The notes under the pieces were generated by a model that saw only the letters and a list, made by a program, of their open reading frames with translations, was not told the DNA's origin and did not search any database. A program made the translations under genes and the position numbers. A stretch of 52,492 nucleotides of DNA from a virus (taxonomy: Duplodnaviria; Caudoviricetes), in the IMG/VR virus record IMGVR_UViG_3300042922_000373, positions 1-52,492 of that record; one strand, written 5' to 3'. This document shows, one piece after another, positions 3,012-39,895 of the stretch; the stretch's first letter is position 1; each line of letters opens with the position of its first letter.

Positions 3012-3196
3012 TCTTCTTCTTTCTTGACGGGGATGTAGTTGAGGAGGTTGCGCAAATCCGATGTGCGCCCAGGCCCCAACTGAATAACAACAGCGCCATG
3101 TTGCATCTCTGCAGCACCGCCCTGCGGATCGATGACCATGCGCAGTCGCTCGCCATCGGTCTGGGCATAGAACCCATTGGAGGAGGTGAAGCTCAC
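2831..3196 (-). CDS. hypothetical protein
   Basis: GTGA start/stop overlap with the upstream gene; its 3' part overlaps the next gene by ~180 nt. Confidence 0.5.
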   Translation of the reverse strand: MSFTSSNGFYAQTDGERLRMVIDPQGGAAEMQHGAVVIQLGPGRTSDLRNLLNYIPVKKEEEWTFVPTAGAKSRKGNVSSRTTSWGTSAKATASNRSSATRSTNMRTVTMLTALVTMIKGM

Positions 3197-3423
3197 TTAA
3201 TCCCTCCGCTAACAGACACCACGATGATCATGAGCGCCATGTACCCCAGTGCCCACCATCCGGCCGCACTCATGTTGCCCGAGGCCCACGCAGTGAGAAC
3301 ACCGCCTACGATGCTCATGATGATGATCACCGACGCTGCCAGAAGCAGGAACTTCATCGGACTCATGACGAGGATGCTGTCCTCGAGCCGGTCATACCAC
3401 GTAGATATCTTCTTCAATACCAC
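3193..3423 (-). CDS. small membrane protein (2 TM)
   Basis: TTGAAAGGAG RBS, GTG at 3423; two hydrophobic stretches. Confidence 0.7.
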   Translation of the reverse strand: MVLKKISTWYDRLEDSILVMSPMKFLLLAASVIIIMSIVGGVLTAWASGNMSAAGWWALGYMALMIIVVSVSGGIK

Positions 3424-3443
3424 GGTTTCTCCTTTCAAGAGAG

Positions 3444-3514
3444 TGGAGGGGTCGCACCAACCCGGATGTCAAAGCGACTCGATTCATCCGTTTATGAGTA
3501 GTCAATACGACCCC
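3444..3514 (-). ncRNA. CCA-terminated stem-loop RNA (acceptor-stem mimic candidate)
   Basis: 15-bp stem GGGGTCGTATTGACT/GGTTGGTGCGACCCC with G-U wobbles, followed by TCCA; inner stem CGGATG/CATCCG. Confidence 0.5.
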
Positions 3515-3516
3515 AG

Positions 3517-3605
3517 TATCTCTAGTGGGATTTGAACCCACGACCTGCCCGCCTCGCTGCCCCAATGAGGACCATGGCTGCTCTGCCAAACTGAGCTATA
3601 GAGAT
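3517..3605 (-). tRNA. tRNA-like RNA with an expanded anticodon arm (pseudo-tRNA, possible CAT anticodon)
   Basis: Acceptor stem ATCTCTA/TAGAGAT, TA-GCTC-AGTTTGGCA-GAGC D arm, AGGTC variable loop, GTGGG-TTCAAAT-CCCAC T arm; anticodon region is 32 nt instead of 17; no encoded CCA. Confidence 0.7.
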
Positions 3606-3840
3606 GGCCAGCCAGGTAAGAGTCCCTCCCAATTACCTGACGAACGGGAGGACCGGAGTATAGTTGCCAGATCTGTTCACCCCCCGGCTACTAAGATAAG
3701 GCATATCACTCCGGCCGTCCCGGGTTTCCATATGGCGTCCTTACTACTACCCGGCTTAGTTGTCCGGGCCAATCGAGTTAGGTCGCCTAATTAGCGCTTA
3801 CATGATTCCTCCAAGTTCGCAGGCTAAATCTCTGACGTTT

Positions 3841-3893
3841 AAAAGAATGAGAATACGGGGTGAAGTCAAGTGTAAGACCTTAACTCCACCCCG
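3841..3893 (-). terminator. strong hairpin, possible intrinsic terminator or RNA domain
   Basis: CGGGGTGGAGTTAAG/CTTGACTTCACCCCG 15-bp stem followed by TATTCTCATTCTTTT. Confidence 0.55.
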
Positions 3894-4038
3894 CCGGATC
3901 TCTCGTTACCCCCGTCGGGATAAGCTGAATCCTACTAGCTCTTCCAACCAATAACCGGATCAGGGCCTAGTCGGAATCGTTGTCTTTGACACAGGGGCTT
4001 TGGATCTTGTCTATTTCAACAAGTGCATATGTCGCTAA

Positions 4039-4142
4039 CATCACGTAATGGTGTTTACTGGTGTGTTGTCTTTAAACGGCTCACGATTTCCGTCCCATTA
4101 CCGCTCTGAGCTTAAGATGCTGTTTAGCCTCGCTCAGACGAG
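4039..4142 (-). ncRNA. pistol self-cleaving ribozyme
   Basis: P1 CTCG/CGAG; pseudoknot TCTGAG/CTCAGA; TAAACAG linker; P2 CATC/GATG; TTAAG; GCG; P3 GTAATGG/CCATTAC; G^T cleavage site at 4044/4043. Confidence 0.9.
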
Positions 4143-4145
4143 TTG

Positions 4146-4394
4146 TTACTTGGTCTTGAAGACGGCCTTGAAGCCTTCCTCGGACCAGGCCGTGACACCG
4201 GACGGCTCCACCACGACCCAGTCACCCTTGCGGAGACGAGTCGAGGAACTGTCAGTGCTCACGGAGACCCAGTTCCCACCGTTGCGAGCGTTCTCGCCGG
4301 CGTCCTTGACGAACTGGACTACGGCCGCTCCGTTGGATCCGTCGAACTGGATCGCGGTTGCGGCGACGGGCTTGCGAGTGACCTGGATCGTCAT
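4146..4394 (-). CDS. hypothetical protein, 'KP..A.Q...GDW...F' paralog family
   Basis: RKPVAATAIQFDGSN...KGDWVV...EGFKAVF; ATGA coupling with the upstream gene. Confidence 0.75.
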   Translation of the reverse strand: MTIQVTRKPVAATAIQFDGSNGAAVVQFVKDAGENARNGGNWVSVSTDSSSTRLRKGDWVVVEPSGVTAWSEEGFKAVFKTK

Positions 4395-4744
4395 GCTGCC
4401 ACGTACTCCGCTGCGAATGCCTCCGCCTTGACCCGGACGAACTCCGCGCCTGCCTTCTCGCGGTGATCTTCGCCGGCTGCGAAGTCGATCTTGAGGATGG
4501 TGTCGCCGACGGTGGCCACTCGCCAGTCGCGCTTGCCCCAGTTCTCGCCGTAGTTGCGCTGGAGCAGACGGACACGAGCCGGCCGAGTGCGCTCCTGGAA
4601 GATGCGGACCCCGTGACCGTTGGCCGCTCCGCCATGCCGGTTGATCCAGGCGACGATCTCTTCGACGTTGTCCTCGGTGACGGTGATCGCTCGGACGATC
4701 TTGTGGCTGCCCTTGTCGCGGACTGCCTTGGTACGAATTGCCAT
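4391..4744 (-). CDS. hypothetical protein, same paralog family
   Basis: RAITVTEDNVEEIVAW...VGDTILK...EAFAAEY; AGGAG RBS. Confidence 0.75.
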   Translation of the reverse strand: MAIRTKAVRDKGSHKIVRAITVTEDNVEEIVAWINRHGGAANGHGVRIFQERTRPARVRLLQRNYGENWGKRDWRVATVGDTILKIDFAAGEDHREKAGAEFVRVKAEAFAAEYVAA

Positions 4745-13959: not shown

Positions 13960-14910
13960 TTAGCTGTCACCCTTGGTGATCCCCTCGAAGGAGGTCTGTC
14001 GCTGGCCGATACCGATGAAGTCCTGGATGAACCCATCGATGTTGAAGTCGAGGATGACGTGCGGCTCGTAGCCGTTGACGAAATCCCGTGCCGCGGGGCT
14101 CTCCAGGTCGAAGATGCCGAAGTCGACGTAGTCGTCTCCACCCGCACCGAGAACCCAGCCGGTCACAGCGCCATCCGGCGTCTCCGGGAGTCCCAGAGCG
14201 TCATAGACGTCGTTCAGTACGAGCCACCCCTTCGAGTGGAGGCGCTCCGTGGCGAACTTCTGCTGACCGAGCAGGAACGTCAGGTTGCCCTCACGCCAGT
14301 GCTTGTTGAAGTTCACGTTGCTCTCGTCGAAGATCTTCGCGTACTTCGAGTAGCGGTTCGGGTCGGACTTCTTGATGACCCGCTCCTCCCCCGTCTCGAA
14401 GTCGATGACCGTCTCCTCACGCAGACCGAGACGGTAGTCCCGATCCTTGTCAGCACCCTGGTCGTCGATGACGTTCTGGCGGTAGTTGTCGTACTGCGAC
14501 TTGATGACGTTGTACGCCGCGACAGCAGCCACGTTCCGCTTCTTGAGCGTCCAGGACGCACCCACGAGGCAGGCCAGCGAAGTGCCGAGCACCAGTCCAC
14601 CGGGGACGTAGAGCTTGAACACATCGACAGCGCGCTTGGTGTAGATGCGCGTCAGGTCGATCTTGTACTGCTCCTCGCTGTACTCCCCGAGCTTCTTGAG
14701 CTCCTTGGCGGCGTCGATCTCCTCCTCGTGCTTGTCGAGAACGGGCTCGAGCTTGAGCGTTGCACGGGCGATCATCACCGCAGCCGTGATCACGCCGGCG
14801 ACACCCACGACCGTGAGCACCTCCGGACTGTACTTCTTGCCCAGGAGGAGTGCCCTCCCGAACTTCTGACCTGCCACGAGCTTCGCGGCGTCCAGGTTGA
14901 ACAGAGTCAT
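13960..14910 (-). CDS. DUF6353-like membrane-anchored protein
   Basis: KKYSPEVLTVVGVAGVITAAVM..RATLK...LNDVYDALG...G...GW...LDFNIDG. Confidence 0.7.
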   Translation of the reverse strand: MTLFNLDAAKLVAGQKFGRALLLGKKYSPEVLTVVGVAGVITAAVMIARATLKLEPVLDKHEEEIDAAKELKKLGEYSEEQYKIDLTRIYTKRAVDVFKLYVPGGLVLGTSLACLVGASWTLKKRNVAAVAAYNVIKSQYDNYRQNVIDDQGADKDRDYRLGLREETVIDFETGEERVIKKSDPNRYSKYAKIFDESNVNFNKHWREGNLTFLLGQQKFATERLHSKGWLVLNDVYDALGLPETPDGAVTGWVLGAGGDDYVDFGIFDLESPAARDFVNGYEPHVILDFNIDGFIQDFIGIGQRQTSFEGITKGDS

Positions 14911-19167: not shown

Positions 19168-19454
19168 GTGTTCTTGTCCTTCTCGAATGGATAGCACGCA
19201 TAAGGATATCCGTGGTACACGAACACGGCGTCCTTATAGCGTTTGGGGATGAGTTGCTCGTAAGGTTCGATCTCCAACCCACATGCCGAGCAATATATGG
19301 GTATCAGCGCGATCGGGTAATCAGCGAAAGGAGTAGTAATCCTGTTTCGGAGGCTTCTGAAACGTAACCCCCATGACAGGACTCGCATCCCTCGCTGACG
19401 TGTAGAAGTAGGACACGTCGAGCTTGTGGTCGAGGTTCCAACCGAAGTCGTCAC
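19164..19454 (-). CDS. small CxxC...HGxPxxC protein (true start unclear, probably near 19320)
   Basis: CSAC...YHGYPYAC resembles ORF 14914..15117. Confidence 0.45.
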   Translation of the reverse strand: MTTSVGTSTTSSTCPTSTRQRGMRVLSWGLRFRSLRNRITTPFADYPIALIPIYCSACGLEIEPYEQLIPKRYKDAVFVYHGYPYACYPFEKDKNT

Positions 19455-20118
19455 CCATCGGCACGTTCCCCAGCCCGATCATGTCGTAGAACATGTTCAG
19501 GGAGGCGTAGTTGTTGTTGTTGATCTCGGCGTTGATCGCGTTGACGGCGGCGTCGACGATGTTCTGGTTGCCCCAGAAATATCGGTCTGTCCAGACATCG
19601 AGGCACTCGACCATCTTCTCGTCGAGACGCCGGGAGTCCGAGAGGAGATTGCGGTCATCCATCGGGTCGCGGTTTGCAACACGATCGCGGATGATCTCCT
19701 CTTCGATCTTGGCGTACTTCGAGTCACCCTGAAGCTCCCGAGTCTTGTCCCGCCACTCCGTCAAAGCCCTGTCGGAGAGGGTGTAAAGGCTCAGTAGAGC
19801 CGCCTTCTGCTTTGTGTTGATCGATTGTGCAGAGATGACACAGCCGATAGTGACCAAGCCGGCAGACAGGGGTGGTACGAAATGCAGCCAAGTCAGCTGG
19901 ACCTTCTCTTTGGCGGTGAGCGGAGTGCCCGGGTCGTTCGGATCGTTGACGTACCGCCGCTCCTCCTCGGCAAGGATGTCGTCATGGGCTCGGATTGCTG
20001 CCCTGGCCGACAGGATCCCGGTGAAGACCACCCCAGCCACCCCAGCGGCCGTGAGGATAGCCGACGAATTCTGAACGATCTTCTGGCTCAGAGTGGACGT
20101 GATGCTAGCGAATGTCAT
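19321..20118 (-). CDS. DUF6353-like protein (paralog of 13960..14910)
   Basis: NSSAILTAAGVAGVVFTGILSARA...ASLNMFYDMIGL...GDDFGWN. Confidence 0.7.
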   Translation of the reverse strand: MTFASITSTLSQKIVQNSSAILTAAGVAGVVFTGILSARAAIRAHDDILAEEERRYVNDPNDPGTPLTAKEKVQLTWLHFVPPLSAGLVTIGCVISAQSINTKQKAALLSLYTLSDRALTEWRDKTRELQGDSKYAKIEEEIIRDRVANRDPMDDRNLLSDSRRLDEKMVECLDVWTDRYFWGNQNIVDAAVNAINAEINNNNYASLNMFYDMIGLGNVPMGDDFGWNLDHKLDVSYFYTSARDASPVMGVTFQKPPKQDYYSFR

Positions 20119-37744: not shown

Positions 37745-39895
37745 TCAGACCGTGAAGACCCACGCGGTCGTGGTGTTCGACGCGAGGTAGTAGCCGGGCT
37801 CTGCGTGAGCCGTGACCTCGGTCGGGCCATCGATGACGACGTCACCGGTCGCCTCGACACCGTCGACACGGTACTCCACGCCGGTCGAAACCGGGATGGT
37901 GATCGTGTCAGTCGCGCCGTCGAAGGACGGAGCCTGCGCCGTGGCCAGGGTACCCTGGTTGCGGGTGAGCACGAGCGCCGACTTCGGACGCGTGAGCGCA
38001 CCGGAGAGGCGGGTCTCCAGGAGGTACTTGTTCTGGTTGAAGTCCAGATCGAAGTCCTCGAAGAAGTTGAGCTCGCCGCCCTTGTTCGTGCCGAGCGAGT
38101 AGTCGATCAGGTTGACGACGATGCCCAGGACGGTCGGAGCCGCCTCGAGGACCTCGACAGCCACGATCTCCTTGACGCGGAGCTTGTCAGCCAGCTGACG
38201 CTCGGTGTCGTAGAGGAAGCGGCCCATCTTGTCCTTGAGCAGGAGCACGTCGGAGATGATCGCGTCGGTCGTGTACAGGGTCGGGGAGCCCGAGCCACGG
38301 TACTGCGAACGGAGACGGATCCACTCCTCCACGATGGTGTCCGGAGCGACGTTGGCGGGGAGCTCCTTCTTGACCACGTACAGGGCGTGGTCGTTGAGGA
38401 TGGAGCGGATGCCGATGCCGTCGATCTGACCCGCAGGGTCCTTGATCTTGTCGGTGTCACCCGTGGCCGGACGGCCGTCGCCGATGAGGATCGCGCGAGC
38501 GAGTTCCTCGTTGAGCATGAAGCGGATCTCCCACTTGATCCACGCGATGACGTCGAAGTCCGTGATGTCGATGATGTCATCGCGGTCGAGACGCTGCTTC
38601 TTGTAGATCGTGGTGGGGGACGTGGTGCGCTGCAGCAGCTGCAGGACCTCGTCCTTCTTCTCGTTGCCCTTGATGTAACCCTTGGCACGAGCCTCGTCGG
38701 CGGTGAGGTCGGCGACGATCGACTTGACCTTGGCCCACGGCTGACGCTTGACGGCGTCGAGGACCTTGGGGACCCACTCCGCCTGGCGAGCCAGCAGCTG
38801 GGGGCTGGAGTCGAGGTTCCGAGCTTCGGGGAAGAGGAGCTCGATGTTGTCGATGCCGTACGTGCCGGCGTGCTTGAGGATGGCGCCCTCGAGATCCTTC
38901 ATCTCGAATGCGTCTTCCATGATCTTCCGCATCCCGTCGTGCGAGATGAACGGCTTGGTTGCGACGGCGGTGCCGCCCTTGTTGGCTGCGTCTTCGAACG
39001 CGTTGTGATCGGTCACGTTGGAACCTCCAATGTTGTCGTGTGCGATGGATTCGTCGGTGCTGGTCGAGTCCGCATCGGCGGAATCGTCAGTGGTGTCACC
39101 GTCGGAGTTGGTGTCTTCGGCGTCGACAGTGGCGTCGGCGTCGGTGTCGGTCTCGTCGGCGTCCGCATCAGCGGAGTCCGCGTTGGTGTCGTCGGAGTCA
39201 GCGTCGGCATCGGCATCGGTGATGGACGAGTGCTCAACCGAGTCCTCGTCGTCCGTAGCAGCCTTACCCGCTTCCTTGCCCGCGATGAACGACTCGTTCA
39301 CCATGTGGGCGATGATGGCCTGATCCTTCGGGTCCAGACGATTGAAGCGGTCTTCGACCGTCTCGTCGCTGTCCGAATCGGCATCGGCATCCTCGTCCGC
39401 ATCGGTGCCGTCGTGAACGATGAACTCACCCGGGAACCGGATGAAGGCCTCGTCCATTTCGGTGACCGAATCGTCACTGTGACGGATGTAAACCTGCTCG
39501 ATCTCAGCGCCGTTGTTGGCACCACCGATCACGAGGCTGACTTCCTTCATGTCACCGTGGAAGATCTGGTTGCTGGTCCCCCGCTTGTCGAGCTCGTTTG
39601 CCCAGACAGACAGCATGCTGATGTCGCCGTTCTCCAGCTGCATCTTGGCTGCCTTGGCCTTGGTCGTCTGGTTGAAGAAACCATGGACGTAAGGCCCCTG
39701 AGCTCGGTGCTCGATGATGACGTGCCCAAGGACCTGTTCGGCGTCCTTGTGGTTGTGCATCCACACCAGGGGGATCTTCTTCTTGTCCTGATGTTCGAAT
39801 GCGCCGTGCTGGATGGTGTTACCGTCCAGACACACTACGCCATACTTGCTGGCCCAGCCGCTGAAATCAGGAGTTCGCGAATTGTCGTCTCCCAT
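37745..39895 (-). CDS. prohead protease-scaffold-major capsid protein fusion
   Basis: N-terminal DFSGWA...IPLVW.H.H..LG...LSVWA...EVSLV..GAN (HK97-type protease); acidic linker; HK97-fold capsid (LNEELARAILIGDG, DFDLDFNQ.KYLLETR). Confidence 0.9.
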   Translation of the reverse strand: MGDDNSRTPDFSGWASKYGVVCLDGNTIQHGAFEHQDKKKIPLVWMHNHKDAEQVLGHVIIEHRAQGPYVHGFFNQTTKAKAAKMQLENGDISMLSVWANELDKRGTSNQIFHGDMKEVSLVIGGANNGAEIEQVYIRHSDDSVTEMDEAFIRFPGEFIVHDGTDADEDADADSDSDETVEDRFNRLDPKDQAIIAHMVNESFIAGKEAGKAATDDEDSVEHSSITDADADADSDDTNADSADADADETDTDADATVDAEDTNSDGDTTDDSADADSTSTDESIAHDNIGGSNVTDHNAFEDAANKGGTAVATKPFISHDGMRKIMEDAFEMKDLEGAILKHAGTYGIDNIELLFPEARNLDSSPQLLARQAEWVPKVLDAVKRQPWAKVKSIVADLTADEARAKGYIKGNEKKDEVLQLLQRTTSPTTIYKKQRLDRDDIIDITDFDVIAWIKWEIRFMLNEELARAILIGDGRPATGDTDKIKDPAGQIDGIGIRSILNDHALYVVKKELPANVAPDTIVEEWIRLRSQYRGSGSPTLYTTDAIISDVLLLKDKMGRFLYDTERQLADKLRVKEIVAVEVLEAAPTVLGIVVNLIDYSLGTNKGGELNFFEDFDLDFNQNKYLLETRLSGALTRPKSALVLTRNQGTLATAQAPSFDGATDTITIPVSTGVEYRVDGVEATGDVVIDGPTEVTAHAEPGYYLASNTTTAWVFTV

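What the first reader, a model, noticed from the sequence alone, without database searches (positions are those of the whole stretch)
4039..4142. Pistol self-cleaving ribozyme 3 nt after a stop codon, heading a non-coding RNA cluster
Seen: CTCG-TCTGAG-CGAG-GC-TAAACAG-CATC-TTAAG-CTCAGA-GCG-GTAATGG-(43 nt)-CCATTAC-GT-GATG. This has every element of the pistol consensus: P1, 6-bp pseudoknot, UAAAYAG, P2, UUAAG, GCG, P3 and the G^U site. P3 carries a long insert. Cleavage between 4044 and 4043 would separate the upstream mRNA from ~600 nt of structured RNA, leaving a 5'-OH end. Biological roles of pistol ribozymes are largely unknown; this context suggests processing of a phage ncRNA operon.
Basis: partly seen in the sequence, partly recalled or inferred. 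Interest (0 to 1): 0.88.

Follow-up and report, generated by a model that had tools for sequence, protein, structure and literature searches.

The report
Pistol ribozyme with enlarged P3 stem
A genuine copy of the known self-cutting "pistol" RNA sits three bases after a gene in this soil actinophage, just before about 700 bases of non-coding, folded RNA; it is an ordinary kind of element, but two culturable Microbacterium phages carry related copies.

Summary
Rfam's Pistol model (RF02679) hits window 4143..4096 (-) at 39.2 bits, above its gathering score of 34.5. The model skips stem P3. Such a closure arose in 6 of 20,000 shuffles.

Pistols with equally long P3 inserts (60, 65 and 111 nt) lie at the same genomic place, upstream of the HNH-helicase block, in an uncultured relative (L002) and in the isolated Microbacterium phages Camille and Count. 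Their pseudoknots differ by compensatory changes.

The context reading is only partly supported. About 720 nt downstream really lack an ORF and look like structured RNA. They hold a hairpin with three compensatory pairs in a strain variant, a tRNA-like RNA and a 71-nt hairpin.

- Start within 10 nt of a stop codon: 55 of 153 pistols.
- P3 of 40 nt or more: 44 of 136.
- Same-strand tRNA within 600 nt downstream: 10 of 137.

Most likely this is a transcript-punctuating ribozyme. This scan has reported phage pistols on other DNA before. It is a new member of a known kind; cleavage itself is untested.

The parts
4146..4394 (-). Upstream 82-aa ORF; its stop codon TAA is at 4148-4146, 3 nt before P1
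   Evidence: ORF list. PHROG matches phrog_419 (4.4e-07) and phrog_1810 (3.1e-06), both of unknown function.
4039..4142 (-). Complete pistol ribozyme, from P1 to the 3' strand of P2
   Evidence: RF02679 39.2 bits against a gathering score of 34.5 over 4143-4096. Long closure read and tested (6 of 20,000 shuffles).
4129..4142 (-). P1 hairpin (CUCG / CGAG); its loop UCUGAG (4138-4133) is the 5' strand of the pseudoknot
   Evidence: P1 and pseudoknot pairs covary across 38 viral pistol cores (the rows were pre-selected for pairing).
4102..4126 (-). Core: UAAACAG, P2 5' strand CAUC, UUAAG, pseudoknot 3' strand CUCAGA (4110-4105), GCG (4104-4102)
   Evidence: Every conserved (upper-case) unpaired core position of the Rfam consensus in this stretch is matched; the conserved C of P2 reads U here and keeps its pair. 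Mapping GCG to G40-C41-G42 and the AG of UUAAG to A32-G33 is my own inference from the residue names in PMC10946891 (passages).
4045..4101 (-). P3: a 7-bp stem (4101-4095 with 4051-4045) around a 43-nt insert (4094-4052), which holds a small hairpin and an A-rich strand with AAAGACAAC at 4073-4065
   Evidence: P3 forms in both the MFE and centroid folds; motif.
4043..4044 (-). Predicted scissile G4044 / U4043 junction
   Evidence: The two-nucleotide junction between P3 and P2. Harris 2015 says its length is strictly conserved (passages). GU is the junction in 100 of 136 parsed viral pistols. Cleavage was not tested.
3606..4038 (-). ORF-free structured RNA released downstream of the cut (not assigned to any family)
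   Evidence: No Rfam match at E up to 10. Fold z -4.03 with 0 of 100 shuffles as good. GC 0.44 at 3925-4149, against 0.63-0.67 in the coding DNA upstream.
3855..3894 (-). 16-pair hairpin followed by a U-rich tail (terminator-like)
   Evidence: Three adjacent pairs (3885/3864, 3884/3865, 3883/3866) are changed on both sides and stay paired in the strain variant of run X2.
3516..3605 (-). tRNA-like RNA (ARAGORN calls it tRNA-Arg CCU) with 26 nt where the model expects an 11-nt anticodon stem end and loop
   Evidence: RF00005 49.2 bits, ARAGORN, fold.
3444..3514 (-). 71-nt long hairpin ending in unpaired UCCA
   Evidence: Fold -31.9 kcal/mol, z -4.22, 0 of 200 shuffles as good. First noted in e1-6301096.
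3193..3438 (-). Next ORF. The likely start is GTG 3423-3421, with GGAG 5 nt upstream
   Evidence: no PHROG match.

Best explanation
This is a working pistol self-cleaving ribozyme of the known class, in a lineage-specific form with an enlarged P3. All genes of the window that I examined lie on the minus strand, so the ribozyme would be transcribed within a long minus-strand transcript.

Once P1, the pseudoknot, P3 and P2 have formed, the 2'-OH of G4044 attacks its own phosphate. That leaves two products:
1. The upstream mRNA (the 82-aa gene and those before it), ending in about 100 nt of folded ribozyme with a 2',3'-cyclic phosphate.
2. Everything downstream, starting at U4043 with a 5'-OH.

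Here the downstream product is about 620 nt of non-coding RNA: an unassigned structured RNA with a terminator-like hairpin, a tRNA-like RNA and a 71-nt hairpin. The next gene follows.

The effect is to uncouple the fate of the upstream message from what follows. This is the same transcript-punctuating role proposed for ribozymes between phage genes.

Shown: sequence and structure membership, covariation, related copies at the same genomic place in other phages, and the non-coding, structured nature of the downstream stretch.

Inferred: cleavage itself, the ends it leaves, and every consequence for RNA stability or processing.
For: **Membership**
- RF02679 scores above its gathering score (39.2 against 34.5), and all core elements are present.
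- The long P3 plus GU plus P2 closure arises in only 6 of 20,000 shuffles.

**Related copies**
- Pistols above the cut-off lie in the same place, upstream of the HNH-helicase block, in L002 (36.5 bits), Camille (36.2 bits) and Count (45.9 bits).
- Each has a long P3 (60-, 65- and 111-nt inserts) closed just before a GU and a P2 complement.
- For L002 and Camille such closures arose in 80 and 206 of 20,000 shuffles.
- The four pseudoknots are UCUGAG/CUCAGA (window and Count), ACUAGG/CCUAGU (L002) and GUAGGG/CCCUAC (Camille). All form 6 of 6 pairs. L002 differs from the window by changes on both sides at 3 pairs.

**Conservation in a strain variant**
- The near-identical strain in run X2 has 13 substitutions and 1 insertion over 3302-4600.
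- None falls in a paired or conserved position of the ribozyme. The only nearby changes are linker 4128, 4145, and 4146, which turns TAA into TAG.

**Family-wide support**
- Of 199 distinct cores fetched with patterns that ignore the pseudoknot, 166 form 6 of 6 pseudoknot pairs, against 26.5 with shuffled partners.
- A stop codon lies within 10 nt of P1 in 55 of 153 pistols, against 23 of 765 random positions.

**Literature**
- Perreault 2011 proposes that ribozymes flanking prophage genes cut long transcripts into shorter mRNAs (PMC3088659, passages).
- Harris 2015 says pistols frequently lie near phage genes (PMC4604425, passages).
Against: - No cleavage assay or end-mapping exists for this RNA.
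- The only RNA-library signal is one 151-nt contig of a soil metatranscriptome, over 3565-3715. It does not touch the ribozyme and could be DNA carry-over.
- P2 is short (4-5 bp here, 3 bp in L002, 3 of 4 in Camille and Count), so some of these copies may be slow.
- The MFE fold of the 104 nt is no better than shuffles (z -1.41).
- Most relatives lack a pistol: 10 of 11 polymerase-related viral loci, and the whole records of DizzyRudy, Damascus, Nightmare, Qui and the contigs of L003 and L006. The element is therefore dispensable for this kind of phage.
Confidence: 0.72

Rival explanations
1. Dedicated maker of ncRNA 5' ends. The pistol is here specifically to launch a small-RNA and tRNA-like operon. 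The cut at U4043 and the terminator-like hairpin at 3894-3855 would define a discrete RNA of about 190-200 nt with a 5'-OH end. The same primary transcript, or read-through of it, would feed the tRNA-like RNA and the 71-nt hairpin to host RNase P and RNase Z.
For: - About 720 nt without an ORF in a tightly packed genome.
- Downstream fold z -4.03.
- A hairpin with three compensatory pairs followed by a U-rich tail.
- No sigma-70-like promoter found on the minus strand between 5000 and 3000.
- tRNA-like elements accompany the pistol in three of the four related phages: 440 nt downstream here, 60 nt upstream in Camille, and inside P3 in Count.
- In the survey, same-strand tRNAs lie within 600 nt downstream of 10 of 137 pistols, against upstream of 3 of 148.
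- Theta ribozymes give a precedent for ribozymes that trim phage tRNA transcripts (PMC10879173, passages).
Against: - The downstream RNA is not conserved with the pistol. L002, Camille and Count share a different post-cleavage leader, and L002 and Camille run on into a protein gene.
- 10 against 3 is a small difference, and 4 of the 10 look like one lineage (L050, L057, L058, L161).
- The MFE pairs of the 5' domain are not kept in the diverged contig of run X3.
- The promoter scan covers only one consensus type.
Confidence: 0.2
2. A decayed or inactive copy. The sequence descends from a pistol, but with its 43-nt P3 insert and short P2 it no longer cleaves at a useful rate. It would persist as a structured 3' UTR or a spacer.
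For: - The score is only 4.7 bits above the cut-off.
- The distribution among relatives is sporadic.
- The 2019 review says that many computationally predicted ribozyme-like RNAs did not cleave when tested (PMC6765202, passages; also PMC8782182).
Against: - All conserved unpaired core positions are intact, and every helix is perfectly paired.
- The strain variant has no change in them, although 10 of its 14 changes fall in the nearby 3840-3954 stretch.
- P3 is where natural pistols vary most: it is 40 nt or longer in 44 of 136.
- Four related phages keep the GU and the P2 complement after very different inserts.
Confidence: 0.06
3. A chance match to the Pistol model.
For: The whole-window E-value is only 0.00094.
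Against: - Features the model did not score (7-bp P3, GU, perfect P2) arise in 6 of 20,000 shuffles.
- Related phages carry compensatory pseudoknots in the same genomic place.
Confidence: 0.02

Closest known systems
Pistol self-cleaving ribozyme class (Rfam RF02679; Weinberg et al. 2015, recalled and cited in Harris et al. 2015, PMC4604425, passages read)
   Same: P1, a 6-bp pseudoknot between the P1 loop and the P2-P3 linker, the UAAA-rich linker, UUAAG, GCG, P3, a two-nucleotide GU junction and P2. It lies near phage genes, as Harris 2015 describes.
   Different: - P3 carries a 43-nt insert; Rfam's consensus P3 has 21 positions and its alignment skips the stem.
- The host range is actinophage. 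The polymerase is 56-57% identical to those of Microbacterium phages, whereas Harris 2015 names Firmicutes and environmental DNA as the main sources.
- Long P3 inserts are common among viral pistols in my survey (44 of 136), so this is variation within the class.
Hammerhead ribozymes flanking genes or short gene blocks in prophages (Perreault et al. 2011, PMC3088659, passages read)
   Same: A small self-cleaving ribozyme between genes of one long phage transcript, proposed to cut it into shorter units. Activity on about 2-kb polycistronic transcripts was shown in vitro for three hammerhead arrangements.
   Different: A different ribozyme class. There is a single copy here, not an array, although other viral contigs in my survey hold up to four pistols (L026). 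What follows is non-coding RNA rather than a gene.
Theta (minimal HDV-like) ribozymes next to phage tRNA genes (PMC10879173, passages read)
   Same: A phage-encoded self-cleaving ribozyme on the same transcript as tRNA-type RNAs, with a proposed role in maturing them without host nucleases.
   Different: Theta ribozymes abut the tRNA 3' end and cut there. This pistol lies 440 nt upstream of the tRNA-like RNA and cannot define either of its ends. The class, hosts (gut Bacteroidota and Bacillota phages) and geometry all differ.

Membership tests
Pistol ribozyme (RF02679) | Covariance-model score at or above the curated gathering score (34.5 bits) | tested here: met
   39.2 bits, window 4143-4096 (-), model positions 1-68.
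Pistol ribozyme (RF02679) | Short P1 hairpin whose loop forms a 6-bp pseudoknot with the linker between P2 and P3 | tested here: met
   - P1 forms 4 of 4 pairs and the pseudoknot 6 of 6.
- Relatives L002 and Camille keep 6 of 6 with different sequences.
- Family-wide, 166 of 199 pseudoknot-blind cores form 6 of 6.
Pistol ribozyme (RF02679) | Highly conserved unpaired nucleotides of the core: the AAA of the linker, UUAAG (A32 and G33 named in PMC10946891) and GCG (G40, C41, G42 named there) | tested here: met
   All are present at 4126-4120, 4115-4111 and 4104-4102. Which window bases correspond to G40, G33 and A32 is my own mapping and was not checked against a structure.
Pistol ribozyme (RF02679) | P3 hairpin directly after GCG | tested here: met
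   A 7-bp stem with a 43-nt insert. It forms in the MFE and centroid folds. The Rfam alignment itself skipped P3.
Pistol ribozyme (RF02679) | Two-nucleotide junction (usually GU) between P3 and the 3' strand of P2; junction length strictly conserved (Harris 2015) | tested here: met
   G4044-U4043 followed by GAUG, which pairs with CAUC. Joint chance is 6 of 20,000 shuffles.
Pistol ribozyme (RF02679) | Mg-dependent self-cleavage at the junction, giving 2',3'-cyclic phosphate and 5'-OH ends | not testable with these tools
   No assay was possible, and the laid runs were contigs only, which cannot show RNA ends.
tRNA (RF00005), for the neighbour at 3605-3516 | Cloverleaf with a 5-bp anticodon stem and a 7-nt loop | tested here: not met
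   The acceptor, D and T arms match (49.2 bits), but 26 nt stand where the model has 11. The fold gives no standard anticodon arm. I call it tRNA-like, not a tRNA.

The most novel reading that the evidence does not exclude
In this group of actinophages, P3 of the pistol may be a socket for accessory RNA modules. The inserts would then be functional cargo rather than spacers: a hairpin plus an A-rich strand here and in L002, a 65-nt two-hairpin insert in Camille, and a 111-nt tRNA-like domain in Count.

Self-cleavage would then put a defined, structured (in Count tRNA-like) 3' end with a cyclic phosphate on the upstream RNA. The pistol, the tRNA-like RNAs and the NCCA-ended hairpin would together form an exchangeable set of processing signals that shapes a phage ncRNA operon.

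For this window, that includes a small RNA of about 190-200 nt with a 5'-OH end, bounded by the ribozyme cut and the hairpin at 3894-3855.
Probability: 0.18. Interest if true: 0.65.

Novelty: new member of a known kind. Interest (0 to 1): 0.38.

Why it matters
The biological role of pistol ribozymes is still open. The 2021 cyPhyRNA-seq paper says only a few self-cleaving ribozymes have been linked to a function (PMC8782182, passages).

This copy adds little in kind. It does lead to related copies in two isolated, lytic Microbacterium phages, Camille and Count. The genome paper on those phages (PMC7302621) never uses the word ribozyme (0 occurrences). No paper in the searched library holds both 'pistol ribozyme' and 'actinobacteriophage'. 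The two papers that hold 'pistol ribozyme' and 'Actinobacteria' are versions of the Rfam 15 description (listing only).

Those phages offer a culturable system to test three things: what cutting right after a stop codon does to a phage message, whether large P3 inserts (including a tRNA-like domain) matter, and how ribozymes and tRNA-like signals share the work of processing.

There is also a practical point. Rfam's model mis-parses all four long-P3 copies, so cleavage sites taken from its alignments would be wrong for this subgroup.

Tried and rejected
- **DNA similarity.** blastn (distant mode) of 3400-4500 against the phage collection found nothing.
- **Repeated motif.** AAAGACAAC occurs exactly twice in the window, both times here (4073-4065 inside P3, and 3987-3979). 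With up to 1 mismatch there are 13 matches against 9.34 expected, and 19 of 100 shuffles reach 13. A 9-mer repeat within 700 nt is about what chance gives (my estimate). Related motifs in other loci look random, except for an 18-mer repeated twice in L002, once inside its P3. I considered a boxA-like antitermination signal, from recall only. I did not test it and do not claim it.
- **MFE fold of the ribozyme.** Not significant (z -1.41).
- **MFE pairs of the 5' part of the downstream RNA.** The diverged contig of run X3 does not keep them, so I propose no structure there beyond the 3894-3855 hairpin.
- **Run coverage.** RNA run X4 covers only 3565-3715, and the lack of cover elsewhere says nothing. 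Runs X3 and X5-X7 hold small shares, and I draw no habitat conclusion from them.
- **Relatives of the 82-aa protein.** Three partial hits of no use.
- **Metagenome scan with the polymerase.** 12 loci. My regex found no further convincing pistol in them. That regex, with a looser gap, also missed the known L002 copy through a wrong register. It reported 5-of-6 matches in L006 and L287 that I regard as spurious. These 12 loci were not run through Rfam.
- **Weak tmRNA_permuted match in Camille.** 18 bits against a gathering score of 47, E 0.14. It overlaps the pistol's P1 and I rejected it.
- **Other gene functions.** Pfam on ten further window proteins showed no RNA-repair or RNA-ligase gene.
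- **Faulty or limited steps.** One fold (L021) used wrong coordinates and is disregarded. The 100% pairing is partly by construction, because I had selected rows with full P1 and pseudoknot pairing. One search is the unbiased count.
- **Supplements.** Supplementary files of the papers were not opened. The alignments behind Harris 2015 and Weinberg 2015 may already contain long-P3 or actinophage examples.

Full report
**1. What is there**

The elements are:
- P1: CUCG/CGAG.
- P1 loop UCUGAG, complementary in all six positions to CUCAGA at 4110-4105.
- UAAACAG.
- P2 5' strand CAUC.
- UUAAG and GCG.
- A 7-bp P3 (GUAAUGG/CCAUUAC) around 43 nt.
- G4044-U4043.
- GAUG, which pairs perfectly with CAUC.

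Rfam's Pistol model hits 4143-4096 at 39.2 bits. Its gathering score is 34.5. The E-value is 0.00094 for the window and 1.8e-05 for a 1-kb search. It is the only Pistol match in this 52,492-bp virus record, which is estimated to be 87% complete.

**2. Which parse is right**

The model's alignment jumps over P3 (0 nt). It uses the first bases of the P3 stem, GUAAUG, as junction plus P2, with one mispair. That would put the cut at 4101/4100 and leave no P3 at all.

I kept the P3 5' strand fixed and shuffled the following 243 nt. A P3 of at least 7 bp, followed by GU and a 4-bp complement of P2, appeared in 6 of 20,000 shuffles. P3 also forms in the MFE and centroid folds of 4101-4045. I therefore accept 4044/4043 as the predicted site.

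**3. Relatives**

The phage is an actinophage. Its primase/polymerase is 56-57% identical to those of Microbacterium phages DizzyRudy, Damascus and Camille, and about 55% identical to those of Arthrobacter phages. Every gene I examined lies on the minus strand.

| Source | Pistol score (bits) | Pseudoknot | P3 stem | P3 insert | After P3 |
|---|---|---|---|---|---|
| Window | 39.2 | UCUGAG/CUCAGA | 7 bp | 43 nt | GU, GAUG |
| L002 (uncultured) | 36.5 | ACUAGG/CCUAGU | 8 bp | 60 nt | GU, AAG |
| Camille | 36.2 | GUAGGG/CCCUAC | 6 bp | 65 nt | GU, GAGC |
| Count | 45.9 | UCUGAG/CUCAGA | 14 bp, perfect | 111 nt | GU, GAGC |

- L002 is the only one of 11 polymerase-related viral loci with a Pistol match above the cut-off. 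Its P1 starts directly after a TAG stop. Three of its pseudoknot pairs differ from the window's on both sides.
- In Count, P1 overlaps the end of the NrdH-like gene. The P3 region folds with z -4.09.
- In all four genomes the pistol lies between the polymerase and the helicase gene. In the window, Camille and Count, HNH endonuclease genes stand just before the helicase.
- No Pistol match at E up to 1 was found in DizzyRudy, Damascus, Nightmare, Qui or the contigs of L003 and L006.
- Rfam's alignments mis-handle P3 in the three copies whose alignments I saw. P3 is skipped in the window and mispaired in Camille and Count. L002's 48-nt hit cannot hold its P3 either.

**4. Count's P3 cargo**

Count's P3 insert is homologous to an element that in Camille lies 60 nt upstream of the pistol. 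That element has a T-arm-like hairpin and a closing stem. The sequences after the cut are also homologous between the two phages. So in this lineage the P3 loop accepts large structured RNAs.

**5. A near-identical strain**

Contigs of a soil run (X2) carry the same locus with 13 substitutions and one insertion over 3302-4600.
- None touches a paired or conserved base of the ribozyme. Linker base 4128 changes, and the stop becomes TAG.
- Ten of the 14 changes fall in 3840-3954.
- Six of those are three adjacent pairs of the 3894-3855 hairpin, each changed on both sides and still paired.

This supports selection on that hairpin as a structure. It is weaker, indirect support for constraint on the ribozyme.

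**6. What follows the cut**

- Between 4145 and the likely GTG start at 3423, no minus-strand ORF exceeds 36 aa.
- GC drops to 0.44 around the ribozyme.
- No Rfam family matches 3606-4038 at E up to 10.
- The 438 nt from the cut to the tRNA-like RNA fold with z -4.03.
- The 16-pair hairpin at 3894-3855 is followed by a U-rich tail and was flagged as terminator-like.
- The tRNA-like RNA (3605-3516) scores 49.2 bits but has 26 nt in place of the 11-nt end of the anticodon arm.
- The 71-nt hairpin ending in UCCA is very stable (z -4.22).
- One 151-nt contig of a soil metatranscriptome covers 3565-3715. This is a weak hint of RNA, nothing more.

**7. How special is the setting?**

I fetched viral contigs with two core patterns that ignore the pseudoknot.
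- Of 199 distinct cores, 166 form all six pseudoknot pairs, against 26.5 with shuffled partners. These are real pistols.
- Using 163 distinct pistols with full pairing, my parser closed 136.
  - P3 (stem plus loop) has a median of 24 nt but is 40 nt or more in 44 of 136. Under stricter rules it is 12 of 40.
  - The junction is GU in 100 of 136.
- A stop codon closing an open frame of at least 60 codons lies within 10 nt of P1 in 55 of 153, against 23 of 765 random positions.
- A same-strand tRNA lies within 600 nt downstream in 10 of 137 and upstream in 3 of 148. Four of the ten look like one lineage.

So 'right after a stop codon' and 'long P3' are ordinary for phage pistols. 'Followed by tRNA-type RNA' is an uncommon but recurring setting.

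**8. Mechanism**

The chemistry is that of the class. G40 acts as general base and a hydrated Mg ion on G33 acts as general acid. The cut falls between G53 and U54 and leaves 2',3'-cyclic phosphate and 5'-OH ends (PMC10946891, passages; PMC6765202, passages).

Because the site is at the 3' edge of the ribozyme, almost the whole fold stays on the upstream RNA, including the P3 insert. The downstream RNA keeps only UGAUG of it.

I infer that the cut uncouples the two halves of the transcript. The upstream message gains a compact structured end. The downstream RNA gains a 5'-OH end. From general knowledge, not a call, a 5'-OH end is a poor substrate for nucleases that depend on a 5' monophosphate.

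A ribosome terminating 3 nt before P1 would cover P1. Translation of the 82-aa gene and folding of the ribozyme may therefore interfere with each other. This is speculation.

**9. Comparison and novelty**

The element is a member of the pistol class. All sequence and structure criteria are met; activity is untested.

Ribozymes between phage genes, and the idea that they cut long transcripts, are in print (PMC3088659). Ribozymes tied to phage tRNAs are known for the theta class (PMC10879173).

This scan has already reported pistols after stop codons on other DNA, including in Streptomyces phages beside half-tRNA look-alikes (unchecked notes).

What may be new, within the limits of my searches:
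- Pistols in isolated Microbacterium phages.
- The long-P3 subgroup that Rfam mis-parses.
- A tRNA-like domain inside P3 in Count.

I could not open supplements, where earlier alignments may list such cases.

**10. Verdict**

It is a new member of a known kind, of moderate to low interest. The main value is the link to culturable phages.

Noticed in passing
L295 2706-2844 (Microbacterium phage Count, MH153801.1 about 58205-58343): Count's pistol has a perfect 14-bp P3 enclosing a 111-nt insert with a T-arm-like hairpin (fold z -4.09). The insert is homologous to an element that in Camille lies upstream of the pistol. The annotated 46-aa gene 88 overlaps the 3' strand of P3 and the RNA after the cut, so it may be a mis-call.
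   Followed up: partly
L042 15503-15576 and L043 15126-15199 (phages DizzyRudy and Camille; Damascus is 99% identical to DizzyRudy): A nearly identical element of about 75 nt starts right at the stop codon of the gene before the non-coding gap. It can be drawn as a hairpin whose loop (CUCC) pairs with GGAG inside a second stem, which is a pistol-like topology without the pistol core. It has no Rfam match, and its MFE fold is not significant.
   Followed up: partly
window 3855-3894 (-): A 16-pair hairpin with a U-rich tail. In a strain variant (run X2, and a minor contig of X1) three adjacent pairs are changed on both sides and stay paired.
   Followed up: yes
window 3516-3605 (-): A tRNA-like RNA with good acceptor, D and T arms, but 26 nt where 11 are expected in the anticodon arm. 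ARAGORN calls it tRNA-Arg(CCU), and no CCA is encoded.
   Followed up: partly
window 3444-3514 (-): A 71-nt hairpin ending in unpaired UCCA, 2 nt behind the tRNA-like RNA. It is very stable (z -4.22).
   Followed up: partly
window 4065-4073 and 3979-3987 (-); L002 15353-15370 and 15590-15607: An A-rich motif occurs once inside P3 and once downstream, both in the window (AAAGACAAC) and in L002 (an 18-mer with one mismatch). Alone it is not beyond chance, but it recurs in two related loci.
   Followed up: partly
L023, L103, L195 (long closures parsed); L038, L039 (read by eye): Several unrelated phage pistols carry 64-170-nt P3 inserts that share sequence blocks (for example CUAG near the start and UACAGUCUGU further in). 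This suggests a second, conserved kind of P3 cargo.
   Followed up: no
L026 200-2830; L085; L025; L028; L032: Some viral contigs hold two to four pistols in a row, each shortly before a ribosome site and start codon.
   Followed up: no
window 39076-39169 (+): ARAGORN reports a 94-nt tRNA-Thr(GGU) inside a GTC/GGC-rich repetitive stretch opposite a minus-strand ORF. Rfam's tRNA model does not report it at its gathering score, so it is probably false.
   Followed up: partly
L295 2985-3100 (phage Count): A further 72-nt element has a perfect 7-bp acceptor-like stem and a T-arm-like hairpin, read by eye. It is not reported by Rfam at E up to 1, and ARAGORN was not run on it.
   Followed up: no
window 13960-14910 and 19321-20118 (-): Two paralogous DUF6353 proteins (E 5.9e-58 and 5.7e-61).
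   Followed up: no
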